Positions 292 through 35,706 of a stretch of DNA of 64,000 nucleotides are shown here, piece after piece. This stretch comes from an uncultured Candidatus Saccharibacteria bacterium (GTDB taxonomy: Bacteria > Patescibacteriota > Saccharimonadia > Saccharimonadales > UBA4665): the NCBI GenBank assembly GCA_937892705.1, contig CALBGR010000021.1:6572-70571 (forward strand). The letters run 5' to 3'. A program made the translations under genes and the position numbers. The number at the start of each line of letters is the position of its first letter. Within the stretch, counting starts at the first letter, position 1. The notes beneath the pieces were generated by a model that was not told the DNA's origin, did no database searches, and was given only the letters and a program-made list of their open reading frames with translations.

Positions 292-302
292 GAGAGGGAG
301 TT

Positions 303-674
303 ATGGCAAAAATCACAATTGTTGAGGACGACCAAGCAATTTCACAAATGTACCGAATTAAGTTTGAAAGTGAAGGATATACGGTAGAAACAGCAGAAAA
401 TGGTAAGATTGGGCTAGAGGTCATTAAAAAAATGAAGCCAGACATTGTGCTTCTGGATGTGATGATGCCTGAAATGAGCGGTGACGAAGTACTAGAAGCA
501 CTCAGAGCCAGCAGCTGGGGCAAAAACATCAAAGTTATTGTACTGACCAACATAGGCGAACAAGAGCTTTCACCAAAAATTAAGGAACTTGGAGTAGAAG
601 CTGTTATCCTAAAAGCAGACATGACGCCACGCCAAGTTGCGGAAATTGTCAAAAAACAACTTGCAAAAACCTAA
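303..674 (+). CDS. single-domain CheY-like response regulator (receiver only)
   Basis: 123 aa with IVEDD ... PDIVLLDVMMPEMSGDE ... VLTN ... LKA. Paralogous to the preceding ORF. Confidence 0.88.
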   Translation: MAKITIVEDDQAISQMYRIKFESEGYTVETAENGKIGLEVIKKMKPDIVLLDVMMPEMSGDEVLEALRASSWGKNIKVIVLTNIGEQELSPKIKELGVEAVILKADMTPRQVAEIVKKQLAKT

Positions 675-693
675 CGCTTGAAAGATATATCTA

Positions 694-1992: not shown

Positions 1993-2611
1993 GTTGTTTA
2001 ACTACCGCTGCTTCAGGCTGCAGCACAACTGCTCGCCCAAGTGCAATCCGCTCTACCATCTTTTCAATCCAATGATAATGCGTACAACCCATTACAATGA
2101 CATCTGCACCGCGCTGAAGTGACTCCTCTATAACATCCCGGATATGTGCTTGATCAATTGCATCTTCTTCAATCATAGACGCCCAGCGGCTACAATCTGG
2201 CTCAAGTACCGTAATATGCTGTGCATAGCGTTTTTTAAGCTCCTTATACCGTTTGCTTGCCAATGTGGTCGGCGTAGCGCAAACGGTAATAACATTTGTT
2301 TTTGTAAGCTTGGCGGCTGGCTTCACCATCGGCTCAATACCAATAAGCGGCACCGACAAAGCCTTGCGCAGCTCCTGAATAATTGTGGTAGTGACCGTAT
2401 TGCAGGCAATTACTATCACATCACATCCCTGCTCCACCAAGTCTTGGAGTATGGGCAGCACAAGCTCATACAATGTTTCAGGTGTTTTGGTACCATAGGG
2501 TACATTTTTACGGTCTTGTGCGTACACCACCTGGTGTTCGGGTAGCGCTTTTCGTATCGCATTTGCAACAGAACGACCACCAACTCCAGAATCAAATACT
2601 CCTATCTTCAC
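1964..2611 (-). CDS. murI: glutamate racemase
   Basis: MKIGVFDSGVGG, catalytic motifs ACNT and GCTHY. Somewhat short (215 aa). Convergent 29-nt overlap with murD. Confidence 0.88.
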   Translation of the reverse strand: MKIGVFDSGVGGRSVANAIRKALPEHQVVYAQDRKNVPYGTKTPETLYELVLPILQDLVEQGCDVIVIACNTVTTTIIQELRKALSVPLIGIEPMVKPAAKLTKTNVITVCATPTTLASKRYKELKKRYAQHITVLEPDCSRWASMIEEDAIDQAHIRDVIEESLQRGADVIVMGCTHYHWIEKMVERIALGRAVVLQPEAAVVKQLTRVLAQLA

Positions 2612-3417
2612 TGTTCTATACGACCCCTTGCAGCACGAATTACGTTATCAAATAAAGCACAGATGGTCAGCGGCCCCACCCCGCCTTTTGGAGGTGTTAC
2701 CGTAAGGTCATCGCGCTCGTATACATCTGGATCAAGGTCACCTACTGTTTTACCGTCTTCTCCGGCAACACCCGCATCAACCACGATAGCCCCTCGCTTG
2801 AGCATAGCAGCATTAATCACTCCAGGACTACCGGTCGCTGTAATCACAATATCAGCACTTGAAACTTTTGCCTGTAGATTATCAGTAGACTCGTCAACTG
2901 CCGAAACAGACACACCAGAATTTTTCAGTATTCTCTCAAGCGGTGCACCTACCAGCTTACCGCGGCCAACAAGCAACACCTCTTTGCCCTGCAGATCGAT
3001 ATTATAACCAGCCAGCAGCCACAAAATAGCCATTGGCGTTGCTGGATCATATATAGCGCGCTTACCGAGCGCATCGACGTCTTTTTCAGGCGCCACCAAA
3101 TCAACAATTTCATCAGTTTGCGATGGGTCTTCAAGTGGCAGCTGCACTATCACACCATGTACGCTTTCATCTTCATTGAGCTTTTGGATTAGCGAAGCAA
3201 CTTCTGCTTGTTTCACCCGATGGATATCAACATCAATCAAAATATCCTCGCCATACTGCGTTTTCATCCGCATATAGACTTCGATTGCCGGATGCTCAAT
3301 AGTAACAACAATAGCTAGCTTCGGAAAAATATGATGTGCCTGCCGCAAACCACGAACCTGCCGCGCCTGCCGCTCTTTGATGAAGCTTGCCAGCTCACTG
3401 CCATTTAACAATTTCAT
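2608..3417 (-). CDS. folD: bifunctional methylenetetrahydrofolate dehydrogenase/cyclohydrolase
   Basis: 269 aa with VGRGKLVGAPL, ATGSPG and PPKGGVGPLT motifs. 4-nt overlap with the murI start. Confidence 0.92.
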   Translation of the reverse strand: MKLLNGSELASFIKERQARQVRGLRQAHHIFPKLAIVVTIEHPAIEVYMRMKTQYGEDILIDVDIHRVKQAEVASLIQKLNEDESVHGVIVQLPLEDPSQTDEIVDLVAPEKDVDALGKRAIYDPATPMAILWLLAGYNIDLQGKEVLLVGRGKLVGAPLERILKNSGVSVSAVDESTDNLQAKVSSADIVITATGSPGVINAAMLKRGAIVVDAGVAGEDGKTVGDLDPDVYERDDLTVTPPKGGVGPLTICALFDNVIRAARGRIEQ

Positions 3418-3471
3418 TTAATTTATTGTAACAGAGATGTACTAGAGTAAAAATAACGTATACTAGTAAAA

Positions 3472-3828
3472 ATGACTACTAAAAACCCTGTAATAATTCA
3501 TCAGCCATCTAAAACCGACCTACTGTTTGAAATCATCGGGTTGCAAACGGCACGCGGAAGAGTCCTCTTTTTTGGGATTGTTAGTATCTGTGTGTATCTA
3601 CTACCGGTAAATACACTGAAAAACTTCTCTCTTTGGAATCTACTTGATATCCACTCACCGTCTATCGGTCTCACTCGGGCATATCATTATGTACTGCATG
3701 GTGACTTTGCCAAAGCATGGGAACAAAATGATTTTATATTTGTAGTACTTATTGTCGGTATACCCATAATCGTAAAAGACGTATACAATGTTACCCAGCA
3801 AATAATAATTGGGAGATATTTTTCATGA
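3472..3828 (+). CDS. small membrane protein, DUF2752-like
   Basis: 118 aa, hydrophobic helices. The GLTRAYHYVLHGDF segment resembles the DUF2752 core. Confidence 0.55.
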   Translation: MTTKNPVIIHQPSKTDLLFEIIGLQTARGRVLFFGIVSICVYLLPVNTLKNFSLWNLLDIHSPSIGLTRAYHYVLHGDFAKAWEQNDFIFVVLIVGIPIIVKDVYNVTQQIIIGRYFS

Positions 3829-3991
3829 ATGACGAAAATCAGAATAACCAGGCACCTAACTCAACCATTCCACCGCAGCCTGGACAGTTTCAAAGTGCTA
3901 ATCCGCAATCCAATTATCGACCATATGAAAACCACCAATAGGTCCTACCCCACAGCCAGGTTTTCAGCCACAAGACGGACAAAAAGACTTT

Positions 3992-4180
3992 TTGGTTGCA
4001 ATTCTACTCTCAATTTTCGCTGGTACTATTGGCGTAGATCGTTTCTACCTCGGCTACACCGGACTCGGTATATTGAAACTTATCACAATTGGCGGCTGTG
4101 GTATCTGGTATATTATAGACATCATTTTGATTGCTACAGGCAAATTGAAAGACGCAAAAGGCCAGCCGCTCAAGCACTAA
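3992..4180 (+). CDS. TM2 domain membrane protein (probably longer: N-terminal Q/P/N-rich part lies in another frame from ATG 3825)
   Basis: [31 protein letters not shown] is a classic TM2 domain. An upstream 38-codon ORF (3825-3941) joins it if the A4 run at 3928-3931 were A5. Confidence 0.75.
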
Positions 4181-4283
4181 TTACATATCAGCAAAAACCT
4201 GCGGGCACTAACCAAAATATACGGCAAAAGGAGTATTGCATACTTCGCCTTAATCTGTTAAAATAGCTCCGTTGCCCGCAAGT

Positions 4284-4360
4284 GGGTCATTAGCTCAGCT
4301 GGTTAGAGCACCTGCCTTTTAAGCAGGGTGTCCTGGGTTCGAGTCCCAGATGACCCTCCA
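4284..4360 (+). tRNA. tRNA-Lys (anticodon TTT), CCA encoded
   Basis: Cloverleaf read by eye: acceptor GGGTCAT/ATGACCC, anticodon arm CCTGC-CTTTTAA-GCAGG, T arm CTGGG-TTCGAGT-CCCAG. Confidence 0.95.
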
Positions 4361-4369
4361 AATTAAGAG

Positions 4370-4396
4370 CCCTACACGAAGAAAGGTAGGGTTTTT
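4370..4396 (+). terminator. rho-independent terminator after tRNA-Lys
   Basis: Stem CCCTAC/GTAGGG followed by TTTTT. Confidence 0.7.
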
Positions 4397-4431
4397 AATT
4401 TGCCTCTTGTCATTTTTGTTATAGTTAGTTT

Positions 4432-4821
4432 ATGACAAAAATCAGCATCGAAGAAGATTGCGGCAATGCGCCAAAGAAGACATTTATTAAAGATTTTCTT
4501 ATTGCAACTACAACCGAGAATATCAATGACGCACTTGAGATGATAACCGATGATATCTCCATCAACACACCGGGTCAAACATTGGCGCATGGTAAAGAGG
4601 AAGCAGAACAATTATTTCGTAGCAACACTGCCAAAAATAAAGTATCGGAACTTATAGTGAAAAATATTCTTTCGCACGGCGACAAGGGTGCAGCTGATGG
4701 AGTTATGAGGTTTACAGACGACAGCAAAGTTGCTTTTTGTCACATATATACCTTTAGCAGCCACAAAAAGGATGCAAAGATAAAAACAATCACATCTTAT
4801 TCTGTAAAAGCTATTCTGTAA
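4432..4821 (+). CDS. hypothetical protein (possibly NTF2/SnoaL-like fold)
   Basis: 129-aa ORF with coding-like composition. No motif I can name with certainty. Confidence 0.55.
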   Translation: MTKISIEEDCGNAPKKTFIKDFLIATTTENINDALEMITDDISINTPGQTLAHGKEEAEQLFRSNTAKNKVSELIVKNILSHGDKGAADGVMRFTDDSKVAFCHIYTFSSHKKDAKIKTITSYSVKAIL

Positions 4822-4926
4822 AAGCATAACAAGACGCCGCGGAAGTTGATATTTTATTAATTTTATGTTACAATAATAAGATAGATATCTGTTATTCTAA
4901 ATCGCCTTATCTCTTATGGTATAAAA

Positions 4927-5430
4927 ATGGCAACCGCTGAAAAATTTTCAACCAGAGAATCCAAAAACACCGAAAACTACGACACACAACGTCGAGAGTG
5001 TCATAATCGCGCCTTCGATCTTGCCGTGGAGACACTTCGATACATGGGGAAACCGATAGTTGTTGATAAACCTGGCTACAAAGTTCGTCGACTTCGAACT
5101 ACAAACTGGGTACCCTATAGGCCACCAGACGCTCCTGAAATTTACACAAATGTACGTCTTCAGTATGTAGAAATTGGTGATACTGAATATAACCTGCCGG
5201 TTAAACGATTTGAAATATACGCTGAAGATAGCGTGATGCAATCTGACTCATCAACGACGCTCGTAGCAACACTGGAAAATCCCGCTACAGGAGCTTCTGC
5301 GATTGCCTATGAAGGCCGTTATATTCCAACCAAATATCGTCCAAAACTTGATGAAATAGTTGTTGATCTCGTGCAGCATATACGTGACACCGTACAAGCC
5401 GAAAGTGTTTATAGAAACTATATTAGTTAG
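4927..5430 (+). CDS. hypothetical protein
   Basis: 167-aa ORF, no recognisable motif. Confidence 0.55.
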   Translation: MATAEKFSTRESKNTENYDTQRRECHNRAFDLAVETLRYMGKPIVVDKPGYKVRRLRTTNWVPYRPPDAPEIYTNVRLQYVEIGDTEYNLPVKRFEIYAEDSVMQSDSSTTLVATLENPATGASAIAYEGRYIPTKYRPKLDEIVVDLVQHIRDTVQAESVYRNYIS

Positions 5431-5693
5431 CGCCGCTTACGAGATGTTTGTGGACGAGCCTCACTTACTACAAGCTTTCGGCCGCCAAATTCTGACCCAT
5501 GAAATTTTTGTATAGCAGCCTTGGCGTCGTCGTCATTTTCGTACTCCACAAAGCCAAAACCTTTGGAACGACCTGTTTCGTGATCGATAATAAGCTTTGT
5601 GGATGTTATGGTGCCTGCTGCTGCAAAAAACTGCGCAAGCTCTTCTTCGGTGGTGCTATACGGTAATGAGCCGATAAATAATTTTGTTGCCAT
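5427..5693 (-). CDS. RNA-binding protein with a single RRM domain
   Basis: RNP-2 LFIGSL and RNP-1 KGFGFVEY, with an Arg/Lys-rich tail. SD AAAGGAG upstream. Confidence 0.9.
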   Translation of the reverse strand: MATKLFIGSLPYSTTEEELAQFFAAAGTITSTKLIIDHETGRSKGFGFVEYENDDDAKAAIQKFHGSEFGGRKLVVSEARPQTSRKRR

Positions 5694-6209
5694 GATAATA
5701 CTCCTTTATGCTCGGAGGTAACATGGCAAACCAGTTAGCTGCTCCTCGGAACGATACTTTTTACTACTTCCTAGAAATTTTCACCCAGCAGCTAGTCTTT
5801 CTAGTAGCTTGACTATATCACACTCTTAAAAATATTGACATAAAAAATTTCTAAACTTTTGTAAAACGCGGTACTGTTTTGCCCTGCCACTCTACTGTTT
5901 TGAGCCAGTTTGCTACGGAGCGAATCCACGTAAGTTTTTCGCCATATTCTGCTTGATACACGACACTTGGTTCGAGTGTTGCTTTAGAAAGCGCAATGGA
6001 AATGACTTTGTAGAGTCTGTTTTCGTAATGTTTATACTGCGCGCCAACAGCAACCTGCTGCTGAGCTTTGGCAAGTCTTTGTTGTAGTGCTTTTTGAGAT
6101 ACGTCTCATACCAAGTGATTATACGCTTAGTGTATGAGTATGTGTGAAAGATTTTACTGTCAAAACAACGTCTCTTTTTCATACTACACATAAACCCTAA
6201 AGGAGGAGT

Positions 6210-6992
6210 ATGAAGGCACTATGGAAAGGATACGTCGTTCTCGGACAACTCGGCATACCAGTACGCCTTTACAGTGCTACGCAAAAATCGGGCGTAACGT
6301 TCGTACAACTCCATGAAAAAGATAGTTCGCCAGTTGAACGCCCGCTGTTTTGTAAAAAAGAAAATCGGGAAATTTCTAGCCATGAAACTATTCGCGGTGT
6401 CGAGTACGAACCGGGTAAATATGTCACATTTACCGAGCAAGAATCGGAGCGATCCTCCAACACAGAAACCAAAGCAATTACCATAAAACAATTTTGTGTA
6501 CCAAATCAGATAGCACCGCATTACTTTGAAAAACCCTACTACCTGGCGCCCGCCAAAGGCGGTGAACGGGGATACGCGCTCTTGCGTGATGGGCTGTCTC
6601 AAACCGGCATGGTAGCATTTGGACAATATTATTTTTACGGTAGTGAGCATATTGGAGTTATTGGAACGCTAGAAGACGTACTAGTACTCTATAAGCTTCG
6701 TTATGCTGACGAATTAGTGCCTCGAAACCAGATAAAAACTCCTCCGCTCTCACGACCAAACCCTGCTGAACTCGACATGATGAAAGCGGCCATTGAGCGA
6801 TACAGCGGACCGCTGCATATACGGGATTATCACGACGAATATACCGAGTATATAAAGCAACTCAGCGAATACAAGATAAAAGGACTACCAATGCCAAAAC
6901 CCGAGCAAGTACCTGCGCATGCTACCCCAGAAAGCGAAATTCATGCCGCACTGGATCAGATACTCAGCCGCAAACAACGCACTATTCAGTAA
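6210..6992 (+). CDS. ku: Ku protein (non-homologous end-joining DNA-end-binding protein)
   Basis: N-terminus ALWKGYVVLGQLGIPVRLYSATQ ... FVQLH ... IRGVEYEPGKYV matches the bacterial Ku consensus. 260 aa. Confidence 0.87.
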   Translation: MKALWKGYVVLGQLGIPVRLYSATQKSGVTFVQLHEKDSSPVERPLFCKKENREISSHETIRGVEYEPGKYVTFTEQESERSSNTETKAITIKQFCVPNQIAPHYFEKPYYLAPAKGGERGYALLRDGLSQTGMVAFGQYYFYGSEHIGVIGTLEDVLVLYKLRYADELVPRNQIKTPPLSRPNPAELDMMKAAIERYSGPLHIRDYHDEYTEYIKQLSEYKIKGLPMPKPEQVPAHATPESEIHAALDQILSRKQRTIQ

Positions 6993-7007
6993 CAATAAAA
7001 ATCTTTA

Positions 7008-8609
7008 CTACCTATTTTCAATGACGGTATCTATAAGCTCGTCATCTTCACCTTTCTTATGATGGTGTGGCAACCAAATGGCCGCAACAACCGCTGCAAC
7101 AGCAACAATACCTGCTGCAACGAGCATGGACTGTGACATGCCGCTCATCCAAGCAGCTTTAGCAGCCATTGCCAAGTCACCACCAACACTACCCATTTTA
7201 TCGGCCACTGACAATGCACCGGCAAGCGAATTGGTAGTAACTTCCTGCATATGCGACGGTAAACCAGTCAGTGCGTTAGTAATTTTTGCAGTGTAGTCTG
7301 AACTTAAAATTGCTCCCAATACTGCTATGCCTAATGATCCACCGAGCTCTCGAGCAGTATTATTCATTGCCGAACCCATACCTGCACGGTTACGCGGAAT
7401 TGCCGACATAAGCATATTGGTTGCCGGTGTCATCGTAAGCGACATACCCACCATCATCACCAACATACCGCCAACCACCTGCCAATACGAAGGTACTACC
7501 GGCCACTGTGACATGATAAGAAATGCAATTGATACAAGCGTAAGCCCAGCGGCGACCGTCCAACGTACTCCAACTTTCTTTACTATATTTGGCACAAATG
7601 GCGCAGTAAGCATCATAAGCATCATTATCGGCAACATCCTAATAGATGACTCCATGGTGCTATAGCCCATAATGAGCTGGAACAATTGACTCATGGAGAA
7701 GAAAATACCCATCAGCGCAAAGAACACAAGCATTATAGATAGCGCAGAAACTGAAAATGCATGGTTTTTAAATAAGCGAAGATCAAGCATCGGGTGTTCT
7801 ATGCGCAGCTGTCGCCAAATAAAAGCGCCAAGTCCTAGCACACCGACTGCCAGCGCAGCCAACACAGTCGTATCATCTAGTCCGTGTGAAGGCGCCTCAA
7901 TGATACCGTATATCAAGCCAAATAGTCCTACCACCGACAATACGCCGCTCAAAAAATCAACCGGCGTATGATGTTCGTCACGAGAGTTCGGCACTAACAA
8001 TTGGTTCAGTACAAACCCTATACCGCCCACAATCAAACTGAAGTAAAATACCGAATGCCACGAAAAGTGCTCCAACAAAAACCCCGTCACAATCGACCCG
8101 AGCGCTATCCCGCCACCAGCAACACCAGACCAAATTGCAATTGCCCGTGCACGTTCATGGCGCGGAAATACATTACCAATCACCGACAGTGTCGTCGGCA
8201 TCACCATAGCCGCCCCAATACCCATAATGGCACGTGCAACGATAAGCTCAATACCAGACCCGGCAATAAACGCAGCATATAGTGTGGCAAGCAAAAATAT
8301 TGCAAGCCCAATTTGCATCACCGTCTTTCGACCGTAATGATCAGCAAGGGCGCTTGCGGTAAACATCAGACTTGCAAAAATAAGCACATAAATATCTACC
8401 ACCCATGTAAGCTGCAACGAGGTAAGGTCCAGGTCACGTGCTAAAGTTGGCAGTGCAAGGTTAAGACTACTATTGCCTACGGTTACAAGCATCAAACCTA
8501 GACACAGTACCGCCAAGATCTTCCATCGTCTTGCATATACAGCTGGCTCAATACCGTCCACATCTTCTGTAGACAATGTAGCTTTAAGTTTGCGTCTTAT
8601 TTTTTCCAT
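7008..8609 (-). CDS. MFS transporter, DHA2 (EmrB/QacA, 14-TMS) family
   Basis: 533 aa, about 14 hydrophobic segments. LADHYGRK (motif A-like) and a typical DHA2 layout. Confidence 0.88.
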   Translation of the reverse strand: MEKIRRKLKATLSTEDVDGIEPAVYARRWKILAVLCLGLMLVTVGNSSLNLALPTLARDLDLTSLQLTWVVDIYVLIFASLMFTASALADHYGRKTVMQIGLAIFLLATLYAAFIAGSGIELIVARAIMGIGAAMVMPTTLSVIGNVFPRHERARAIAIWSGVAGGGIALGSIVTGFLLEHFSWHSVFYFSLIVGGIGFVLNQLLVPNSRDEHHTPVDFLSGVLSVVGLFGLIYGIIEAPSHGLDDTTVLAALAVGVLGLGAFIWRQLRIEHPMLDLRLFKNHAFSVSALSIMLVFFALMGIFFSMSQLFQLIMGYSTMESSIRMLPIMMLMMLTAPFVPNIVKKVGVRWTVAAGLTLVSIAFLIMSQWPVVPSYWQVVGGMLVMMVGMSLTMTPATNMLMSAIPRNRAGMGSAMNNTARELGGSLGIAVLGAILSSDYTAKITNALTGLPSHMQEVTTNSLAGALSVADKMGSVGGDLAMAAKAAWMSGMSQSMLVAAGIVAVAAVVAAIWLPHHHKKGEDDELIDTVIENR

Positions 8610-28593: not shown

Positions 28594-28992
28594 ATGGCAG
28601 ATACCTATCAACCCCAACATACAGGATGGAAAGGTTGGATATTGCTTACAGCTCTTTTAATGTTCTTTAGCGGCATTGTGCATATTGTATACGGAATTGG
28701 CGGCATATTTACTCATGGCTGGTATATTTATACTTCAAACAACGCATATATCTTCGATGCGAGCACTTGGGGTTGGTCAATGTTCATAGTAGGAATACTG
28801 CTTATGTTGTCCGCATTGTCTCTCGCAGCAGGTAATTTATTCGGACGTATCGTAGGAGTTATATTGGCCATAGCCAGCATTGTATTCAATATCGCACTTA
28901 TCGGCGCCACACCAATTTGGTCAGTGATTGCCATTATCCTTAGTATTATTATCATTTATGCAATTACTGCCCACGGCAGCGAAATGAAATAA
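28594..28992 (+). CDS. small 4-TM membrane protein (DUF7144-like)
   Basis: 132 aa, four hydrophobic helices, GWKGWILLTALLMFFSG ... PIWSVIAIILSIIIIYAI. Confidence 0.65.
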   Translation: MADTYQPQHTGWKGWILLTALLMFFSGIVHIVYGIGGIFTHGWYIYTSNNAYIFDASTWGWSMFIVGILLMLSALSLAAGNLFGRIVGVILAIASIVFNIALIGATPIWSVIAIILSIIIIYAITAHGSEMK

Positions 28993-29290
28993 TATCGGCG
29001 CTATCACTCCAAACCATAAACAACGGAATGTTAAACCGCCACAAACTTTACCAAACACCCTCTTTCTGGGAAAAACAGACGCATTAAATCCTGTAAATGT
29101 GGCAAAGTTGCCATACTCTGAAGAAATCGTAAGACGTTTACGTAATAACCTCAAAGAACAAACGGGTATCTACTTTCAGATCGATGATGTTACAGAGTAA
29201 CTAAAAATATCATTGTAAAAAAGTAGAGTTTCCAAAGCCTCACCTTCGACAAAAAACCTAAAAGAAAAAAGACGCCTGTAGTAGATAGTG

Positions 29291-29513
29291 TTTCTGGGAA
29301 AGAGGTCCCCATGGGGTAACAAAAACCTTCTCCTGCTTGAGAAGACTTAAAGTACTTTAACTGGCCGGAGTGAAAAGCAGCGCCCCACGGGCTTTTCCGT
29401 TCAGCCTTGCTCGAGGTAAGCTTCTGTGCGCGACTTCACCTCACCGAACCTTCATCATCTACAATGTTTTTCTGACAGAAAATAGTCGAAGAACCGAACT
29501 CTTAACCCAGAAA
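29291..29513 (+). ncRNA. candidate structured RNA of unknown class (strand tentative)
   Basis: Closing helix TTTCTGGG-a-AAGAG (29291-29304) pairs with CTCTT-aa-CCCAGAAA (29499-29513). At least five internal hairpins, for example CTTCTC/GAGAAG, GAAAAGC/GCTTTTC, GAGGT/ACCTC. An intrinsic terminator follows immediately on the plus strand. Confidence 0.35.
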
Positions 29514-29523
29514 AAGAAAAAAC

Positions 29524-29548
29524 GACCGTCGAAAGACGATCATTTTTT
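29524..29548. terminator. bidirectional intrinsic terminator
   Basis: GACCGTC-GAAA-GACGATC flanked by an A-run (5') and T6 (3'). Confidence 0.7.
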
Positions 29549-29550
29549 CT

Positions 29551-29558
29551 TGGTCGGG
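29551..29558. repeat. 8-nt copy of the tRNA-Pro 3' end (TGGTCGGG), candidate distal att core
   Basis: Identical to 35630-35637. On the minus strand it reads CCCGACCA followed directly by a terminator, as expected for an orphaned tRNA 3' end. Confidence 0.45.
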
Positions 29559-29703
29559 ATAAGCACAATACACTAGAACTCAAAAATTACCTCTTGCAGA
29601 ACTATGACAACTTCAATTTTGCCGTCGAACAAATACGAACAATTAAGAATATAGATGATGGCAAGCTACTCGTAGTCAAGTTATAATTGACTGAAAGGAG
29701 TTT

Positions 29704-29935
29704 TATGACAAACCTATCTGATGCAGCAGAAATTTTAAGACAATCTAAAAAGAATAAAGAGATCCAGGATAATAAGCCTATAAACTTCACGTCTACAGCT
29801 AAGACTAACGGTGTATCGGTGCATACGCTAAAAGCTGCTAGTGGTATTTCTGTACGTATGATGGATGACGATCCAAAGAAAATTAACATAGCCGAAATGT
29901 CCTCGAACCCTCAGCCAGAAAATAACCAGAAATAA
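29704..29935 (+). CDS. hypothetical small protein (island)
   Basis: ATG 29704 lies 4 nt after AAAGGAG. 77 aa, hydrophilic. Preferred over the antisense ORF 29602-29889. Confidence 0.5.
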
Positions 29936-29977
29936 TCCACCGCTACTGCACAACTTCTAAAAATACAGATGGTAACC

Positions 29978-30823
29978 CTACCGTTCGCTCATGATTCTAT
30001 TAATGATTTGGAATATTTTATCAAGGAATAGTACTTGCTTGAGTGATAATTGCTCTGATACGTAGCTGGAGTTCTCACCATGCAGAATTCTGTGCCGACT
30101 GGCTTGATTACTTAATTTAAACAGTTGGAGATTTTCTCTTTTCTGGATGCCCCTCAAGCTGTCGTTGGCAAAAAGTATATTTTTGAAGGAATAATAAATC
30201 GGATAGATATCAAAGTAATCATCTGCTGGTACATTATTATAGTCATCTAGGCCAAAGTGTCGGGCAAAGTTTACTTGCTGCTCACTTATAATTGTGTCGA
30301 GATTTTTAGACTTCATATTATCAATTGCCTGTTCTTTTGAAGCAGGAAACAGACTTTTAGCATAGTGGTCGATCTGTGCCATTGCTACAGGAATGCTCAA
30401 GCTGTATTTTCTTTCTATGTGTGCGTCCAGTAAGTCAACCAGTATCCTCCTTCTAGATTTAGGTATAAACCCATACTCAGCCCATCTTTCGCGCATTTCA
30501 TGAAGTTTCTGACTGCCATTTTTTCTCGACTGTCTAACAACTAGCTTGGTAAATGCCTTGTTGTACTCTTCGCTGCCTAAGGCTGCCTCAGTCTCATTGG
30601 CTGGCAAGTCATCAATAATAGAACCTGGATACCACCAGCCAGTTTTAATATTTATCTCATATTCGTCTACTCGTCTGTTAATTTGCCTGAAAAAATCCGT
30701 ATCAAACAGTTTTGACATATCCTTATTGATAGTTGATATAACATCTGTGATTGACTTTTGATAATCTCCCTGTATTGCTCTAATCGCACGCTGGATCGAA
30801 TCATATATACTGTCATTATTCAT
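29978..30823 (-). CDS. hypothetical protein with C-terminal Rx4H motif (HEPN/Abi_C-like candidate)
   Basis: 281 aa. NQASRHRILHGE near the C-terminus fits the HEPN Rx4-6H motif and the RNxxxHG-type Abi_C signature. Sits downstream of the XRE gene on the same strand. Confidence 0.4.
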   Translation of the reverse strand: MNNDSIYDSIQRAIRAIQGDYQKSITDVISTINKDMSKLFDTDFFRQINRRVDEYEINIKTGWWYPGSIIDDLPANETEAALGSEEYNKAFTKLVVRQSRKNGSQKLHEMRERWAEYGFIPKSRRRILVDLLDAHIERKYSLSIPVAMAQIDHYAKSLFPASKEQAIDNMKSKNLDTIISEQQVNFARHFGLDDYNNVPADDYFDIYPIYYSFKNILFANDSLRGIQKRENLQLFKLSNQASRHRILHGENSSYVSEQLSLKQVLFLDKIFQIINRIMSER

Positions 30824-30875
30824 AAATACATCTTACAGTTATCGACTACAAAACCTCAAAACCCTCACAAGTAAG

Positions 30876-31091
30876 TTAGAAGTCAGTTAAATCAGAAACT
30901 CTTACCTTTAGAGCTTTAGCAATCTTTTCAATACTTCTTAGCGATGGATTTTGTACACCACGCTCCACTCTGGAGATGTACCCACGATCAAGACCTGTCT
31001 CATGACCTAGCTTCTCTTGCGTAATACCTGCTTGTTGCCGATAGCACTTAACTCTTTGACCTAATTTTTGTAATACGCTTGTTCTTGCCAT
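30876..31091 (-). CDS. XRE-family HTH transcriptional regulator
   Basis: 71 aa, ITQEKLGHETGLDRGYISRVERGVQNPSLRSIEKIA. Confidence 0.88.
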   Translation of the reverse strand: MARTSVLQKLGQRVKCYRQQAGITQEKLGHETGLDRGYISRVERGVQNPSLRSIEKIAKALKVRVSDLTDF

Positions 31092-31216
31092 TGTAATTCA
31101 ACAATGACTAAAAGAGACTGATAAGACTACGCCTGATGAGTCTCTTTTATATTGATTTTACTCTGTAATTCTGGTAATAATTAAACAACGCTAAATAACT
31201 GAGAGGACAGACATAG

Positions 31217-32134
31217 ATGAAGGCTAAACTATCTGAAAATAAAAAATGGTACACGAAGAATCAGATAGTCATAGCCTTACTTGTCCTACTGTTCCCAGTG
31301 GGATTGTTTCTTATGTGGAAGCACTCCGATTGGACAAAGCGTACAAAAATTATAGTCAGCGTTATAGTTGCTATAGCCGCAATTTCAGGAGTCATTGCTT
31401 CATACAACTCGCCGCCATCAATAAGCGTTAATAATGCTCAATCGGACAGAATAAATACAGACGATAAGGAATATACTCTAACTGGAGAAGTATCCAGTCT
31501 GAGAGACGCAACACTAACGATTAATGAAGAATCTGTATCTCTGGACGGTATCAAGTTTTCGTATCATACGGAGCTAGAAGAAGGAGATAACACCTTTACA
31601 TTAGTTGCGACTAACAGCATCGGTGAGACTACAAAAGTCATAACAATCTATCGAACGACACAAGCCGAACTAGATGCACGAGCAGAAGCTGAGAGACTAG
31701 AGGCAGAAAAGAAGGCTGAGGAAAAGCGACGAAAGCAGGAGGAGGAAAAGAAAAAAGAGCAAGATAGCCAGTCTAATAACGACCAGCCTTCCGAAGCAGA
31801 TCAAAAACCATCGGTAGATCTAGCTAAGCAGACCGAAGAAAGCCTCAAGAAAGCATTAGAAATTTCTAGCTTCACTGAACTGCTTTTCCAGGACCCATCG
31901 TCTCTCATGGGATACATCGCTAGCTTTGAAAATGTAAACGACAGCACAGTACGTGTAGTTATCCAGACCGATATAGAGCGTAATGAGGCTCAACAGGTTG
32001 GTCGGGTTATATTTTCTACCGCTGCCTATGATAACGAGAACTTGAAGGCTCTTGATACGCTTGTCGTACGAGATATTTCTGGCATAGATAAAGCCAATAT
32101 CTACAGATGGGACATACCGGCTCTGAAGCGCTAG
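31217..32134 (+). CDS. membrane-anchored protein with Ig-like segment and charged coiled-coil linker (island)
   Basis: Two N-terminal TM helices, an EAERLEAEKKAEEKRRKQEEEKKKEQ low-complexity linker, and a globular C-terminus. Confidence 0.6.
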   Translation: MKAKLSENKKWYTKNQIVIALLVLLFPVGLFLMWKHSDWTKRTKIIVSVIVAIAAISGVIASYNSPPSISVNNAQSDRINTDDKEYTLTGEVSSLRDATLTINEESVSLDGIKFSYHTELEEGDNTFTLVATNSIGETTKVITIYRTTQAELDARAEAERLEAEKKAEEKRRKQEEEKKKEQDSQSNNDQPSEADQKPSVDLAKQTEESLKKALEISSFTELLFQDPSSLMGYIASFENVNDSTVRVVIQTDIERNEAQQVGRVIFSTAAYDNENLKALDTLVVRDISGIDKANIYRWDIPALKR

Positions 32135-32201
32135 CTGGAACCATAGAACGACCCCTGTTAAACACTCTTGACTGCCGTTGTATGACAGATACGATTAGGG
32201 T

Positions 32202-32831
32202 ATGGATAAACCTAGAAAAACCCAGACAAAAGCAACCAGAGTAAGAGGCTATGAACTTACCTGTGTAGACAATATGGCTTTCGATGAGCTGTCTAGCTCC
32301 CTGTTTAAAATGATGCGACAGAATCGTGAGAAGTCCGCCTGCTGGGCTGCCTACCTGTTGCATACATCAGGATATTATCGCTATGTCTGGAAACGGCTTC
32401 TGATATTTACATCTGAGGACATAGGCAACGCTAATCCTATGGCGATCACTGTCATTATGTCGCTTAAGCAAAGTTATGATTTCTGCATAGATAGCAAAAA
32501 TCGACAGTCTATAACAGCATATACGATATTGTTTCAAGCAGTTACCTACCTTTGCAGATCCATGAAAACCAGAGAAGCCGATTCGCTTGCTACATTGATT
32601 GATACTGAATACAACAACGGTAAACGCATTGAGATAGAAGATTGGACGAAAGATCCTCACACTGAGTATGGCAAGCAGAAATATGGCAAATGGGATGATG
32701 GCACTCCAGAAGAACGAAAAGAACGCTATCGTATGTGGGTAGAGGTTTGGTCTAAAGCAACTGATGAGCTAACACTACTTGACCGTTATATGCCAAAATT
32801 AAGACAGCTATGGGAGCTGGATGATGAATAA
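32202..32831 (+). CDS. stand-alone MgsA_C-like (RarA/WRNIP1 C-terminal domain) protein
   Basis: ACWAAYLLHTSGYYRYVWKRLLIFTSEDIGNANPMA ... AVTYLCRSMKTREA parallels the RarA C-terminal ALYWLARML ... ASEDIGLADP ... YLA..PKSN block. No AAA+ module. Confidence 0.55.
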   Translation: MDKPRKTQTKATRVRGYELTCVDNMAFDELSSSLFKMMRQNREKSACWAAYLLHTSGYYRYVWKRLLIFTSEDIGNANPMAITVIMSLKQSYDFCIDSKNRQSITAYTILFQAVTYLCRSMKTREADSLATLIDTEYNNGKRIEIEDWTKDPHTEYGKQKYGKWDDGTPEERKERYRMWVEVWSKATDELTLLDRYMPKLRQLWELDDE

Positions 32832-33762
32832 AGCAATATCTACTACTAGGATAAATAAAACGCAGTTATACAGTTTTGACGGACGTATCATACGCTCTTT
32901 GTTTTCTAACATCGATGTAGCACCTTCAACTCGAGATAATTACAAACGTAGAGCTACTCGCTTCTTACATTTCTGCAAGGGCAATGGTCTTGATTTAGAT
33001 ACGCTCCTAAAATATAAGCAGTCGTTGGCAGCAGACACTAGCATTGGTGTTCAGGCTAAGAATCAATACCTAACTGCTGCTAAAATTGCACTACGTCAGA
33101 TGTATAGACGAGGATATATACCAATTGACCTGTCATCAGATGTAAAATTATTCAAGCAAAATAAGAAGCATGTTGTATCAGGTCTTACTCAAGATGAAGT
33201 TAAGATAGTCAGTCAGTACCTGCGAGATAATCTGCCTAATGACCATGAACACATGCGACTTAGGGCATTAGTGGCTCTAATGTTATTTCAAGGACTAAGA
33301 CAGTGTGAGATTGTTCGGTTGAAGTTTGCGGACTTTGATATGGATAACGGTACATTACGCATACGTGGCAAAGGCAGAGATGACTATGAACTGGTTCATC
33401 TGCACCCCAACTGCAAGAAAGTGCTAACTTACTACATTTTTTCTGTTACTGATTGGTGGCTGGACTCATATTTATTCAGAAGTCGTGAGGGGCATCTAAA
33501 AGCACTGACTACCAGACAAGTTCACAGGATTATTAAAGAGAAACTATTCAAGCCTCTCGGCATCTCCAGGAGAGTGCATGGATTTAGACATCACTTTACT
33601 ACCGAGCTGATCAAAACATCGAATGGTAACCTACTGGAAGTTGCCAAGTTTACAAGACATAGAAGCTTGGAAATGCTACAGGTCTATAACGATGATATTG
33701 AGACTGAGAAATACTTGCCTACGTACTACTCCACATTCAAAGAAAAACTCGTCACTTCGTAA
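32821..33762 (+). CDS. tyrosine recombinase/integrase
   Basis: GLRQCEIVRL (Arg I), HGFRHHF (H-x-x-R), TRHRSLEMLQVY (catalytic Tyr region). Confidence 0.88.
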   Translation: MMNKAISTTRINKTQLYSFDGRIIRSLFSNIDVAPSTRDNYKRRATRFLHFCKGNGLDLDTLLKYKQSLAADTSIGVQAKNQYLTAAKIALRQMYRRGYIPIDLSSDVKLFKQNKKHVVSGLTQDEVKIVSQYLRDNLPNDHEHMRLRALVALMLFQGLRQCEIVRLKFADFDMDNGTLRIRGKGRDDYELVHLHPNCKKVLTYYIFSVTDWWLDSYLFRSREGHLKALTTRQVHRIIKEKLFKPLGISRRVHGFRHHFTTELIKTSNGNLLEVAKFTRHRSLEMLQVYNDDIETEKYLPTYYSTFKEKLVTS

Positions 33763-33845
33763 AGCATCCAGAAGTACCAAAATCTAAGGAATTGTTTGGA
33801 AAATTGTAGGGTTTTCCGCTAAATGGGGTATGTCGTTCTGTGCGG

Positions 33846-33929
33846 TTTCCGATAATTCTATGGACTTTCAGATAGGTCTGACACAACGCCATGAACGCTC
33901 CAATTTCCGATAATCCGACATATCGGAAA
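33846..33929. repeat. TTTCCGATAAT direct repeats plus inverted copy between the two recombinase genes
   Basis: TTTCCGATAAT at 33846-33856 and 33904-33914. TATCGGAAA at 33921-33929 forms a 9-bp inverted repeat with the second copy. Confidence 0.6.
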
Positions 33930-33984
33930 CTCCTGCTCTCCTGACACCTCAGATGGCTTATACTAATTACTGGAGAGCGGATTT

Positions 33985-35687
33985 GTGAACGATGACACTT
34001 CATTACTAAAAAAACTCATTGAGGAACATTTACCAAAAGATGAGCAAGAAATTGATCCTAAAACGATTAGATGGGCTTTATATGCAAGGAAATCAACAGA
34101 GAGCATAGAACGACAGGCTCGCTCCATACCCGATCAAATAGCCGACTGTCATGACGCCATACTACAACCGCTAGGAATTGTATTATCTAAGAAAGACATC
34201 TATACGGAAGAGCGTTCAGCCAAAGAGGCTGATACTCGACCTGTATTTCGTGATGTAATAAACGCCATTAAAGACAGTAAGTACGATGGCTTAATAGCAT
34301 GGCACCCAGACAGACTGGCTAGAAACATGAAAGAGGCTGGCGAAATAATAGACCTTATAGATAAAGGTGTTATTAAAGACCTAAAGTTTGCTCGTTCACA
34401 CTTTGAAAACACGCCAAGTGGCAAGATGACACTAGGCATCAGTTTCGTTCTATCAAAACACTACTCTGAACACTTGAGTGAATCAGTAAATCGGGGAAAT
34501 CGAAGAATTACAGAACGAGGTGGCATACTCTATAAATTCAAGCATGGGTACCGCATACAAGATACCCATAAACTTATAGCAGATGACGACAATTACTTAC
34601 TTATTCAAAAAGCCTTTGAAATGAGAACTAAAAACAAAACCCAGAAAGAAATTGCCGAATTCCTGAACAAGAGCAGCTACAAAGTGTATCGACGCAGTAA
34701 AGGTCATCAAGATTATACATTTGATGAAGATGCTATATCCAAGATGTTGAGAGACCCTGTATATGCTGGAGTAATCATTTATGGTAATCATGTTGGCTTG
34801 GTTGCGGATTATGATCCAACATTTACGCCTATGCTGACCGAACAAGAATTCCTTAACCTACATGGCGAAAAGAACTTCCTATCAAAGTCGTTCCGAGCAA
34901 GTACATCTAGTCAACCGAGAGACAATTCCAACTTCCTTAGGCGATTTGTTAAATGCGGTCATTGCGGCAGATTTATGACTACATCTGTTTCAAAAAGCGG
35001 TAGCACAAAGCAACACTATTTTTATTTCAGATGCGAGAATAAAGGTGGATGCGTAGTTGCTGGCACTGGTCCAAGAGGTGTGATAGCCCTTGATTATGCA
35101 ATCAACTTCCTAGACAATCATCGCTTTGTTACGGAGGAAAATTATAATCGCTATAAGATTGATGTTGAGGAAAGACTAAAGTTCGATACAGAAGAAAACG
35201 ACAGGATCATAGGTCAAGCTACTAGCTTATTAGGTAAAAGACGCAAAGAATTTGAAAACGCAAAAAAGCCGCAGCCGATAAGAGCAACGAACTCCATATC
35301 TTCTACACAGCCAGAGACCTCAAGAAGCTTGAAGATGAAATTAATACACTCGACAAAGAACTCAAAAAAGCCAGAAGAAAAAAAGCTAAGCAAGATGAAG
35401 CTATGCTGACCTACGAAAAATATCTCGAACTTTTTGAAAATACTGCGGAATTACTTCGGTCGTCAACCAGTATGTCGGCTGCTGATGAGATAATTCGTAT
35501 TTTCTTCTCGAACTTCACCGTTAAAGCTGAGCCAAAGAGCGAAAAAAGTAAACAAAAACTGTGGTCAATAACTAACCACTGTCTTGCAAAGCCTTTCGAC
35601 GAATTCGTCAAAAATGGTGAATTCCTTAATGGTCGGGGTGAAAGGACTCGAACCTTCGACCTCACGGTCCCAAACCGCGCGCGCTAG
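33985..35687 (+). pseudogene. large serine recombinase, split by a frameshift at the A6 run 35262-35267 (intact if A7); the 3' end runs antisense into tRNA-Pro
   Basis: Resolvase catalytic domain (ALYARKSTES ... DRLARN), recombinase domain, and Cys-rich zinc ribbon (CGHCGRFM ... FRCENKGGC). The coiled-coil tail continues in the frame of track ORF 35403-35687. Confidence 0.85.
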
Positions 35688-35706
35688 CCAACTGCGCCAC
35701 ACCCCG
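35630..35706 (-). tRNA. tRNA-Pro (anticodon TGG), CCA encoded
   Basis: C1-G72 acceptor CGGGGTG/CACCCCG, anticodon arm CGCGG-TTTGGGA-CCGTG, T arm GAAGG-TTCGAGT-CCTTT. Confidence 0.93.

What the first reader, a model, noticed from the sequence alone, without database searches (positions are those of the whole stretch)
29551..35637. About 6.1-kb integrated element at tRNA-Pro carrying both a tyrosine and a large serine recombinase
The last 8 nt of tRNA-Pro (minus strand CCCGACCA; plus strand TGGTCGGG, 35630-35637) recur at 29551-29558. On the minus strand, the distal copy is followed immediately by a good intrinsic terminator (29524-29548). That is what the original tRNA 3' end plus its terminator would look like after an insertion displaced them.

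Between the repeats lie:
- A small ORF.
- An Rx4H protein and an XRE regulator.
- A membrane/coiled-coil protein.
- An MgsA_C-only protein.
- A tyrosine recombinase.
- A large serine recombinase, whose ORF reads antisense into the tRNA (last ~19 codons).

No phage structural or conjugation genes are present, so this is a minimal integrative island. Two unrelated recombinases in 3 kb is unusual.
Basis: partly seen in the sequence, partly recalled or inferred. Interest (0 to 1): 0.6.

Follow-up and report, generated by a model that had tools for sequence, protein, structure and literature searches.

The report
Serine-integrase island in tRNA-Pro
A 6.1-kb mobile island sits exactly at the 3' end of a proline tRNA gene in an uncultured Saccharibacteria genome, and it was very probably inserted by a large serine integrase from a clade, widespread in these ultra-small bacteria, that targets tRNA genes, which textbooks assign to tyrosine integrases.

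Summary
Observation confirmed to the base. Five contigs from the same species have an empty site. They match the window up to 29558 and resume at 35630, sharing one TGGTCGGG. In them, tRNA-Pro is followed directly by the 29524-29548 terminator.

The element is 29559-35629 (6,071 bp) plus an 8-bp direct repeat. It is a compositional outlier: GC is 39.9% against 43.4% for the rest of the window.

The integrase is most likely the large serine recombinase (LSR), not the tyrosine recombinase:
- 60 of 80 homologous LSR genes across Saccharimonadales and other CPR phyla end against a convergent tRNA (40 are tRNA-Pro).
- Only 4 of 18 such loci carry the tyrosine recombinase.
- An ACTnGAAC motif lies 5 bp further from the core on the element side than in the tRNA T-arm. 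This matches the published zinc-ribbon-motif offset for LSR attP versus attB.

The window's LSR gene is broken by a 1-nt deletion in an A-tract (A6). Another sample holds the same element with A7 and an intact ORF.

The MgsA_C-only protein and the Xer-like tyrosine recombinase form a conserved two-gene module, found both with and without the LSR.

This is an ordinary kind of element with an unusual integrase-target pairing.

The parts
29551..29558 (.). Left copy of the 8-bp direct repeat TGGTCGGG (attL core). It is the displaced last 8 nt of tRNA-Pro (CCCGACCA on the minus strand).
   Evidence: empty-site contigs have a single copy joining 29558 to 35638.
29559..35629 (.). Body of the integrative element, 6,071 bp.
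   Evidence: Absent from 5 conspecific contigs and present at 100% identity in 4. GC is 39.9% against 43.4%, the lowest of 91 windows. Tetranucleotide distance is 0.266 against 0.126 +/- 0.015.
35630..35637 (.). Right copy of the direct repeat (attR core). It is the 3' end of the functional tRNA-Pro.
35630..35706 (-). tRNA-Pro(TGG), the target gene. It is intact after integration.
   Evidence: ARAGORN; Rfam tRNA, 63.6 bits.
29510..29548 (-). Hairpin plus U-run. It is the tRNA-Pro terminator in empty-site strains and forms the left (B) arm of attB.
   Evidence: Folding. It is directly adjacent to the tRNA in the empty-site contigs.
29572..29579 (+). ACTAGAAC motif in the element-side (P') arm, at positions 22-29 counted from T1 of the core.
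   Evidence: The same motif (ACTyrAAC) is at the same position in 8 related elements.
35646..35653 (+). ACTCGAAC, the T-loop/T-stem of the tRNA read on the plus strand, in the B' arm at positions 17-24. This is 5 bp closer to the core than the P' motif.
   Evidence: Sequence. The 5-bp offset rule for the zinc-ribbon-domain (ZD) motif in attP versus attB comes from PMC3783163.
29705..29935 (+). Small ORF of 76 aa with no family match.
   Evidence: Called as a gene in other assemblies.
29978..30823 (-). 281-aa all-alpha protein of a small uncharacterised family, with a conserved R243-x4-H248-G motif.
   Evidence: 18 homologues, no Pfam match. Conserved columns. AF2 model pLDDT 80.7. No PDB fold match.
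30876..31091 (-). XRE-type HTH regulator, most similar to restriction-modification controller (C) proteins. It lies upstream of the 281-aa gene.
   Evidence: Pfam HTH_3 2e-15; PADLOC Control_protein 7e-17.
31217..32134 (+). 305-aa protein with an N-terminal membrane anchor, an Ig-like segment and a charged coiled region.
   Evidence: Weak Glucodextran_B and Cadherin-like matches.
32202..32831 (+). Stand-alone MgsA/RarA C-terminal-domain protein. Its stop overlaps the tyrosine recombinase start.
   Evidence: Pfam MgsA_C 1.4e-9. The pairing with the tyrosine recombinase is conserved.
32821..33762 (+). Xer-like tyrosine recombinase, 313 aa, intact.
   Evidence: Pfam Phage_integrase 1.4e-17. NCBIfam XerA/XerC/XerD-like, below the cut-offs.
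33904..33929 (.). Perfect 9-bp inverted repeat with an 8-bp spacer (TTTCCGATA-ATCCGACA-TATCGGAAA) in the spacer between the two recombinase genes. Candidate tyrosine-recombinase core site or operator.
   Evidence: The exact repeat is not conserved in G350 or G123, which have other short repeat arrays there.
33985..35409 (+). LSR reading frame 1. The first 427 codons or so are genuine (Resolvase, Recombinase, Zn ribbon). The last 47 codons or so are out of frame after the A6 tract at 35262-35267.
   Evidence: All homologues are single ORFs of 540-620 aa.
35256..35687 (+). LSR C-terminal part in the -1 frame (coiled-coil and tail). It runs 58 nt into the tRNA on the antisense strand.
   Evidence: It is colinear with the single-frame homologues. 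The A7 allele joins the frames.
35561..35579 (-). Terminator-like hairpin inside the LSR 3' coding end, about 50 nt downstream of the tRNA. Likely the replacement tRNA terminator in the occupied state.
   Evidence: Equivalent hairpins are visible in G350 and G123.
29362..29470 (-). Host-side relic, not part of the element. It is a decayed tRNA-Pro 3'-end copy (TGGCCGGAGTGAAAAGCA) with about 64 nt inserted in the T-loop, followed by CGAACCTTC.
   Evidence: Present in empty-site strains. Same architecture in six genomes.

Best explanation
This is a 6,071-bp site-specific integrative island with no phage or conjugation genes. It inserted into the 3' end of tRNA-Pro(TGG) of a Saccharibacteria (Saccharimonadales) chromosome.

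Integration mechanism:
- Integration was a conservative attP x attB exchange inside the 8 bp TGGTCGGG. This is shown.
- The exchange was catalysed by the element's own large serine recombinase (LSR). This is inferred from comparative data.
- The LSR gene ends at attP, so in the integrated state its last codons are read from the antisense strand of the tRNA.
- The target half-site is built from the acceptor end and T-arm of the tRNA.
- The LSR zinc-ribbon-domain (ZD) motif (ACTyGAAC) sits 5 bp further out on the element arm, as expected for LSR attP versus attB sites.
- The crossover dinucleotide lies within TGGTCG, probably the TC. This is inferred.
- The tRNA stays intact. Only its last 8 nt and its terminator are displaced. 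A hairpin inside the LSR 3' end probably serves as the new terminator.

State of this copy:
- In this strain the LSR carries a 1-nt deletion in an A7 tract, which truncates it inside the coiled-coil region.
- The genome has no second LSR, so this copy is probably locked in place.
- A sister allele with A7 is intact.

Other genes:
- The MgsA_C-only protein and the Xer-like tyrosine recombinase form a conserved accessory pair. Their most likely job is resolving or maintaining the excised circle, or acting on an internal site. This is a guess.
- The XRE/C-protein-like regulator and the 281-aa Rx4H protein are cargo, possibly a defence or toxin module. This is also a guess.
For: Empty and occupied alleles in one species:
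- Breakpoints are exact and share one 8-bp core.
- The element is a compositional outlier.

LSR domains:
- Resolvase, Recombinase and Zn ribbon are present.

LSR association with tRNAs:
- 18 of 29 best homologous loci in the order abut tRNA-Pro, and 3 abut tRNA-Gly.
- In a scan of species-representative genomes, 60 of 80 homologues (34-59% identity) have a convergent tRNA 1,465-1,700 nt from the start of the match. Of these, 40 are tRNA-Pro and 20 are other tRNAs. Six more loci sit at contig ends.

Tyrosine recombinase is dispensable for the site:
- Only 4 of 18 LSR-at-tRNA-Pro loci hold a tyrosine recombinase.
- LSR-only elements in G052 and G112 show the same terminator + TGGTCGGG left junction.
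- None of 11 stand-alone tyrosine-recombinase loci has a tRNA within 1.5 kb.

Site is actively used:
- A different LSR element occupies the same tRNA-Pro in a contig whose flank haplotype is identical to that of the empty strains (L094).

att-site anatomy:
- The P' motif is at 22-29 in 8 elements, against 17-24 in the tRNA. This matches the 5-bp ZD shift described in PMC3783163.

Frameshift:
- A6 is found in five assemblies.
- A7 is found in L093.
- The A-tract is not conserved in 17 homologues.
- G000 has a single LSR.
Against: - No recombination assay was possible, and no excised circle was seen.
- An 8-bp identical core flanked by short inverted repeats (CCTTAA / ATAAGC) would also suit a tyrosine recombinase.
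- The ZD-motif offset is seen on one arm only. The other P arm lies in coding sequence and the B arm is a variable terminator.
- No recombination directionality factor was identified.
- The roles assigned to the MgsA_C/tyrosine-recombinase pair and to the cargo are guesses.
Confidence: 0.82

Rival explanations
1. The Xer-like tyrosine recombinase, not the LSR, integrated the element. The 8-bp repeat would be its overlap region, flanked by inverted binding elements. The LSR would then be a passenger or serve another reaction.
For: - tRNA 3' ends are the classical targets of tyrosine integrases (PMC4383910).
- Identity of 6-8 bp between partners is what tyrosine recombinases require.
- The tyrosine recombinase is intact here while the LSR is broken.
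Against: - 14 of 18 related islands at tRNA-Pro lack any tyrosine recombinase detectable with a profile, yet some show the same TGGTCGGG junction.
- The tyrosine recombinase + MgsA_C pair occurs in 11 other loci, none with a tRNA within 1.5 kb.
- The LSR gene, not the tyrosine recombinase gene, abuts the att site in 60 of 80 loci.
- The tyrosine recombinase is Xer-like and lacks an arm-binding N-terminal domain.
Confidence: 0.08
2. The A6 tract is functional. It would be either a programmed -1 ribosomal frameshift site or a phase-variable homopolymer. The zero frame reads GC-A-AAA-AAG, the dnaX/IS911-type slippery heptamer. Either mechanism would keep integrase production low or switchable.
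For: - The heptamer A_AAA_AAG is in the correct frame at 35262-35268, and a -1 slip gives exactly the homologous protein.
- A6 and A7 alleles coexist in the species.
Against: - The A-tract is absent from all 17 homologues examined (longest A-run is 2-6, at non-equivalent codons).
- All homologues are single ORFs.
- The zero-frame stop is 47 codons downstream, and no stimulatory structure was noted.
- Two alleles in different strain backgrounds are equally explained by one mutation.
Confidence: 0.08
3. The polymorphism is a deletion, not an insertion. On this view the island is ancestral and immobile, and the 'empty' strains lost it by chance recombination between the two 8-bp repeats.
For: The element-bearing haplotypes W and M differ from each other about as much inside the element as in the flanks. 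This is compatible with vertical descent of the occupied state.
Against: - The loss would have to be exact to the base and restore a perfect tRNA plus terminator.
- The element has foreign composition.
- It is absent from the three other species of the genus.
- The same site carries a different LSR element on the empty-type haplotype.
- Precise loss at the att core is itself what site-specific excision produces.
Confidence: 0.04

Closest known systems
Genomic islands in tRNA/tmRNA genes driven by tyrosine integrases (Islander class; Williams 2002; Hudson et al. 2015, PMC4383910)
   Same: - Insertion at the 3' part of a tRNA gene, which stays functional.
- A displaced tRNA fragment marks the far end.
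- The integrase gene sits next to the att site.
- Distribution among strains is sporadic.
- The site acts as a hot spot, with remains of earlier events.
   Different: - The likely integrase is a large serine recombinase.
- The duplicated segment is only 8 nt (part of the acceptor end plus CCA), not the usual 15-50 nt.
[quoted passage not shown]
Large serine integrases of phages (A118/LI, phiC31, Bxb1; Rutherford et al. 2013, PMC3783163)
   Same: - Resolvase + Recombinase + zinc-ribbon + coiled-coil architecture.
- attP lies beside the int gene.
- The common core is short.
- The ZD-like motif is 5 bp further from the centre in attP than in attB.
   Different: - The target is a tRNA gene end rather than a protein-coding gene.
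- attP lies inside the integrase ORF, so the C-terminal tail changes on integration.
- The carrier is a 6-kb island with no phage genes.
- No directionality factor was recognised.
SCCmec-type cassettes moved by Ccr large serine recombinases
   Same: - Small to medium non-phage, non-conjugative islands.
- An LSR inserts them at the extreme 3' end of a conserved housekeeping gene without inactivating it.
- Tandem or composite occupancy of the site occurs.
- There are weak NCBIfam matches to CcrA/B/C.
   Different: - The target is rlmH (orfX), not a tRNA.
- The Ccr matches are far below the family cut-offs.
- The cargo is unrelated.
Tycheposons and cryptic elements of Prochlorococcus (bioRxiv 10.1101/2020.12.28.424599)
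   Same: - Small cargo-carrying integrative elements at tRNA-associated island sites.
- A minority (27 of 937) carry a large serine recombinase instead of a tyrosine recombinase.
   Different: - A different phylum, and no sequence relation was tested.
- In the part of that paper I read, a tRNA-specific LSR clade and its att anatomy are not described.

Membership tests
Site-specific integrative element (genomic island) | Occupied and empty alleles with identical breakpoints in related genomes | tested here: met
   Five empty and five occupied conspecific contigs. The junctions share one TGGTCGGG.
Site-specific integrative element (genomic island) | Direct repeat (att core) at both ends, with an integrase gene on board next to one end | tested here: met
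   8-bp repeat at 29551 and 35630. The LSR gene ends at the right core.
Site-specific integrative element (genomic island) | Excised circular form (attP) detectable | tested here: inconclusive
   The 40-nt attP junction was not found in JGI metagenome contigs.
Large serine recombinase (serine integrase) | N-terminal resolvase catalytic domain with the serine nucleophile, followed by a Recombinase domain and a zinc ribbon with a coiled-coil insert | tested here: met
   - PF00239 3.8e-19 and PF07508 1e-8.
- PF13408 3.6e-4, below the gathering score.
- The YARKST motif is visible.
- The coiled-coil region is inferred from sequence.
- In this copy the ORF is frameshifted inside that region.
Large serine recombinase (serine integrase) | attP and attB share only a short core, with the ZD motif displaced about 5 bp outward in attP | tested here: met
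   - The shared core narrows to TGGTCG across elements.
- ACTnGAAC is at 22-29 in eight P' arms, against 17-24 in the tRNA.
- This is seen on one arm only.
Large serine recombinase (serine integrase) | Catalyses attP x attB recombination at a 2-bp crossover without host factors | not testable with these tools
   Needs an in vitro or heterologous recombination assay.
Tyrosine-integrase tRNA island (Islander type) | A tyrosine integrase is responsible, and the island carries a tDNA fragment long enough to rebuild the split gene | tested here: not met
   - Only 8 nt are duplicated.
- The tyrosine recombinase is missing from 14 of 18 related islands at the same site.
- Homologous pairs elsewhere are not next to tRNAs.
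Prophage | Capsid, terminase, portal or tail genes | tested here: not met
   Apart from the integrases, the regulator and an 'ATPase' hit for MgsA_C, the only PHROG matches were weak hits to families of unknown function. No Pfam structural domains were found.
Integrative conjugative or mobilisable element | Relaxase, coupling protein or type IV secretion genes | tested here: not met
   None found with Pfam or NCBIfam among the seven ORFs.
HEPN/Abi-type toxin (for the 281-aa cargo protein) | HEPN fold with a catalytic Rx4-6H motif | tested here: inconclusive
   - R243-x4-H248 is nearly invariant in 18 homologues.
- There is no Pfam or PADLOC hit.
- The confident AF2 model has no PDB fold match (E >= 0.8).

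The most novel reading that the evidence does not exclude
The window's LSR belongs to a CPR-wide clade of large serine integrases whose natural attB is the 3' end of a tRNA gene. The target is mostly tRNA-Pro, with switches to Leu, Glu, Val, Gln, Gly and others. These integrases would read the T-arm as the zinc-ribbon motif and carry attP inside their own ORF. If so, this would be the first described serine-integrase lineage with tDNA specificity. It would also be a ready-made integration tool for Saccharibacteria.
Probability: 0.55. Interest if true: 0.65.

Novelty: new variant of a known kind. Interest (0 to 1): 0.55.

Why it matters
1. It overturns a working rule of island finding. The rule says tRNA sites mean tyrosine integrases and serine integrases mean protein genes. 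It fails for a whole radiation of bacteria, where 60 of 80 homologous LSR genes abut a tRNA.

2. Saccharibacteria and other CPR bacteria are very hard to manipulate genetically. The attB here is a conserved tRNA-Pro end present in most members, including a human-oral TM7 lineage (L147). A native, factor-independent integrase with that target, and with natural variants for other tRNAs, is an obvious candidate for an integration vector.

3. In genomes of 0.8-1 Mb, these small islands appear to be a main route for exchanging cargo. Relatives carry methyltransferase and restriction-like genes.

4. The one-species set of empty, occupied (broken integrase), occupied (intact integrase) and differently occupied alleles gives a natural experiment on island turnover.

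Tried and rejected
1. T-loop crossover with a left boundary near 29362. Related loci show an 18-22-nt tRNA 3'-end copy further left, so I first suspected this. The empty-site contigs contain that region, so it is host flank.
2. Rfam search of the left flank and of a related locus found nothing credible.
3. Programmed frameshift. Judged unlikely because an A7 allele exists and the tract is not conserved.
4. Search for the excised circle. An exact 40-nt junction gave no hit in the metagenome contigs.
No read-level test of excision or of A6/A7 heterogeneity was possible.
6. Fold search for the 281-aa protein found no match. The HEPN idea stays open.
7. Looking for a conserved tyrosine-recombinase site. 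The 9-bp inverted repeat at 33904-33929 is not conserved in the two closest elements.
8. Pinning down the crossover dinucleotide by dyad symmetry of the arms. This was ambiguous (TG, TC or CG) because the P arm is coding sequence and the B arm is a variable terminator.
9. Same-genus genomes G001-G003 as empty sites. None is clean. G002 and G003 keep decayed LSR 3' ends on the tRNA, and G001 has the locus split over two contigs.

Full report
**What is there.**
The window is contig 21 of an 840-kb, 22-contig genome. All relatives with named records are Candidatus Saccharimonadales / Saccharibacteria MAGs.

- tRNA-Pro(TGG) lies at 35630-35706 on the minus strand.
- Its last 8 nt, read on the plus strand as TGGTCGGG, recur at 29551-29558. 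The identity is exactly 8 nt.
- Next to the distal copy, on the minus strand, a 16-bp hairpin with a U-run folds as an intrinsic terminator.
- Seven ORFs lie between the repeats:
  - a 76-aa ORF;
  - a 281-aa protein of an uncharacterised family;
  - an XRE regulator most like restriction-modification controller (C) proteins;
  - a 305-aa membrane-anchored protein;
  - a stand-alone MgsA_C protein;
  - a Xer-like tyrosine recombinase;
  - a large serine recombinase (LSR).

**Is it more than chance?**
The 8-mer alone is not. It occurs three times in the window against 0.73 expected, and one copy lies inside the element.

Exact-protein look-ups with the two flanking genes returned contigs of the same species from other samples.

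- Five contigs (L088, L090, L091, L092, L096) match the window at 99.4% up to 29558. They then continue at 35630 at 99.7%, with one TGGTCGGG shared. In them tRNA-Pro is followed directly by the 29524-29548 terminator.
- Four others (L089, L097, L098, L099) contain the element at 100% identity over 9 kb.

The element is therefore 29559-35629 (6,071 bp) plus an 8-bp target duplication.

It is also a compositional outlier:
- GC is 39.9% against 43.4%, the lowest of 91 windows of equal size.
- Tetranucleotide distance is 0.266 against 0.126 +/- 0.015.

It is absent from the three other species of the genus.

**The serine recombinase is broken here.**
The gene is split. Frame 1 (33985-35409) goes out of register at GCAAAAAAGCC (35260-35270). 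The homologous protein continues in the -1 frame, which is open from 35256 to 35687 and ends 58 nt inside the tRNA on its antisense strand.

- All homologues are single ORFs of about 540-620 aa.
- A contig from another sample (L093) carries the same element (99.75% identity) with A7 instead of A6 and an uninterrupted ORF.
- The A6 site happens to form the slippery heptamer A_AAA_AAG in the right frame. However, the A-tract is not present in any of 17 homologues. I therefore read it as an ordinary frameshift mutation.
- The truncation falls in the coiled-coil region, which serine integrases need for synapsis (PMC3783163).
- The genome has no other LSR, so this copy is probably immobile.

**Which recombinase put it there?**
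Four lines of evidence point to the LSR.

1. Association with tRNAs.
   - In 401 genomes of the order, 168 have LSR homologues. Of the 29 best loci, 18 have tRNA-Pro (TGG or GGG) and 3 have tRNA-Gly, convergent and abutting the LSR 3' end. Three more sit at contig ends.
   - In a scan of one genome per species, 60 of 80 homologues (34-59% identity) have a convergent tRNA 1,465-1,700 nt from the start of the match. These come from Saccharimonadales and other CPR phyla. Of them, 40 are tRNA-Pro. The rest are Leu, Glu, Val, Gln, Ala, Ile, Met and His. Six more are at contig ends.
   - By chance, about 1% would be expected.
2. The tyrosine recombinase is dispensable for the site.
   - A profile search finds it in only 4 of 18 LSR-at-tRNA-Pro loci.
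   - LSR-only islands in G052 and G112 have the same 'terminator + TGGTCGGG' left junction.
   - Homologous tyrosine recombinases occur in 20 of 401 genomes.
   - In 11 stand-alone loci none has a tRNA within 1.5 kb.
3. Use of the site within this species. A contig with exactly the empty-site flank haplotype carries a different LSR 3' end on the same tRNA-Pro (L094). The site is therefore used repeatedly by LSR elements.
4. The att-site anatomy fits the serine-integrase rule.
   - Counting from T1 of TGGTCGGG, the element-side arm carries ACTAGAAC at positions 22-29 (29572-29579).
   - Seven related elements from three other arm families carry ACTyrAAC at the same positions.
   - The tRNA side has ACTCGAAC, its T-loop/T-stem, at positions 17-24 (35646-35653).
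   - Rutherford et al. showed that the zinc-ribbon-domain (ZD) motif lies 5 bp closer to the centre in attB than in attP (PMC3783163).
   - In the G394, G316 and G324 elements the shared core shrinks to TGGTCG or TGGTCA. The crossover must therefore lie in those six bases. The geometry favours the TC, which corresponds to base 72 and the discriminator of the tRNA. This last step is inference.

**The second recombinase.**
The MgsA_C-only gene overlaps the start of the tyrosine recombinase gene. The trio MgsA_C - tyrosine recombinase - LSR is conserved in the two closest elements, G350 and G123, which have LSRs 55-56% identical. Five of the 11 stand-alone tyrosine recombinase loci also have the MgsA_C gene immediately upstream, without an LSR.

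'Two recombinases in 3 kb' is thus a conserved module, and the tyrosine recombinase with MgsA_C is a functional pair in its own right. The recombinase is Xer-like.

A perfect 9-bp inverted repeat with an 8-bp spacer lies in the spacer before the LSR gene (33904-33929). It has the shape of a tyrosine-recombinase core site, but it is not conserved in the relatives. My best guess is multimer resolution or maintenance of the excised circle. This is unproven.

**Cargo.**
The XRE protein matches R-M controller proteins (PADLOC 7e-17). It precedes the 281-aa gene.

For the 281-aa protein:
- It has 18 homologues and no Pfam match.
- It has a nearly invariant R-x4-H-G motif.
- It has a confident all-alpha model but no PDB fold match.
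- A HEPN-like toxin is therefore possible but not shown.

The related islands in G350 and G123 carry methyltransferase-like and large restriction-like genes, which suggests defence cargo in this element family.

**History of the site.**
The flank left of the terminator is not pristine.
- 29040-29320 is a stop-containing remnant of the 3' end of a gene that is intact in G001-G003.
- 29362-29470 is a decayed copy of the tRNA-Pro 3' third, with about 64 nt inserted in the T-loop.
- Both are present in the empty-site strains, so they predate this island.

The same arrangement lies left of the LSR islands in five other genomes: tRNA 3' copy matching that genome's own tRNA variant, structured insertion, hairpin, then the att core. 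This led to the side finding reported under 'noticed in passing'.

**Comparison with what is known.**
In kind this is a genomic island in a tRNA gene. The unusual feature is the integrase class.
- Surveys of mycobacterial prophages show the same split (PMC10654092).
- The large LSR-mining preprint does not mention tRNA in its main text.
- A minority of Prochlorococcus island elements carry LSRs.

I cannot exclude that later large surveys list tRNA-targeting LSRs. I therefore rate this a new variant of a known kind rather than something categorically new.

**Limits.**
- There was no biochemical test.
- No excised circle was found.
- The ZD offset is seen on one arm only.
- The roles of the tyrosine recombinase pair and the cargo are guesses.

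Noticed in passing
window 29362-29470 (degenerate copy); L078 12555-12686, L079 8118-8245 and 16182-16313, L084 5915-6046, L077 1928-2057 and 15959-16109, L038 8989-9079 and 16432-16553, L116, L118: A structured module of about 95 nt, with three covarying hairpins and conserved GGTGAGA...CGnAAGG...CGGGGTCGCnnnnGTGACC.

- It sits inside the T-loop (sometimes after the D-arm) of partial tRNA copies that flank genuine tRNA genes (Pro, Gly, Arg, His, Leu, Val).
- It is on the same strand as the tRNA and is often in tandem.
- A covariance model finds up to 12 copies per genome in 10 of 41 relatives.
- The one copy scanned (L078) has no Rfam match.
- The layout fits miniature elements that integrate in tRNA T-loops and rebuild the tRNA.
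   Followed up: partly
L115 (G029:C16) 33-8257: Two tandem 4.1-kb units. Each holds an LSR of a second subfamily (38% identical to the window's), two small ORFs and one copy of the structured T-loop module just beyond the LSR 3' end. This suggests the module is the end of an autonomous LSR element family.
   Followed up: no
L094 (SRR18352859 contig), first 250 nt in window orientation: A third allele of the same site in the same species. A different LSR 3' end (...KAFSKLEKAQTVLIGRG...) abuts the identical tRNA-Pro. Its flank haplotype is identical to that of the five empty-site contigs.
   Followed up: partly
L095 and L099 (both from SRR5251487): One contig ends 4 nt into the att core and the other ends inside the tRNA. 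Many relatives' contigs also start or stop inside tRNA-Pro. These assembly breaks are what mixed occupied and empty populations would produce.
   Followed up: no
L104, L105, L107, L108, L114; window 32202-33762: The MgsA_C-only protein and the Xer-like tyrosine recombinase recur as an adjacent pair in other Saccharimonadales genomes. There they have no neighbouring LSR or tRNA. I know of no described function for this pairing.
   Followed up: partly
window 35561-35579 (minus strand): A terminator-like hairpin is embedded in the LSR coding 3' end, about 50 nt downstream of tRNA-Pro. Similar hairpins are visible in G350 and G123. It is probably the replacement terminator for the tRNA once the island has displaced the original one.
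   Followed up: partly
window 29040-29320 and 28990-28992: - 29040-29320 is a pseudogene remnant (in-frame stops) of the 3' end of a 247-aa gene that is intact in G001-G003.
- The gene order relative to the DUF7144 gene differs between genus members.
- The DUF7144 protein is 132 aa here but 141 aa in the empty-site strains, because of a TAA/CAA difference at the stop codon.
   Followed up: partly
L076 (G112) 5565, 6991, 7653: Three successive copies of ...TTATTTATAGTGCTTATGCTT|TGGTCGGG, 1.4 kb and 0.66 kb apart, lie left of an LSR island. They may be a tandem array of small units at the same att core.
   Followed up: no
window 31999-32006: A third exact copy of TGGTCGGG lies inside the element, in the 305-aa gene. 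It shows that the 8-mer alone could have misled boundary calling.
   Followed up: yes
L036 (G002) about 8300-8402; L037 (G003) 2940-3300: The other species of the genus keep decayed LSR 3'-end fragments fused to their tRNA-Pro. The rest of each recombinase gene is missing. These are relics of earlier LSR islands at the same site.
   Followed up: partly
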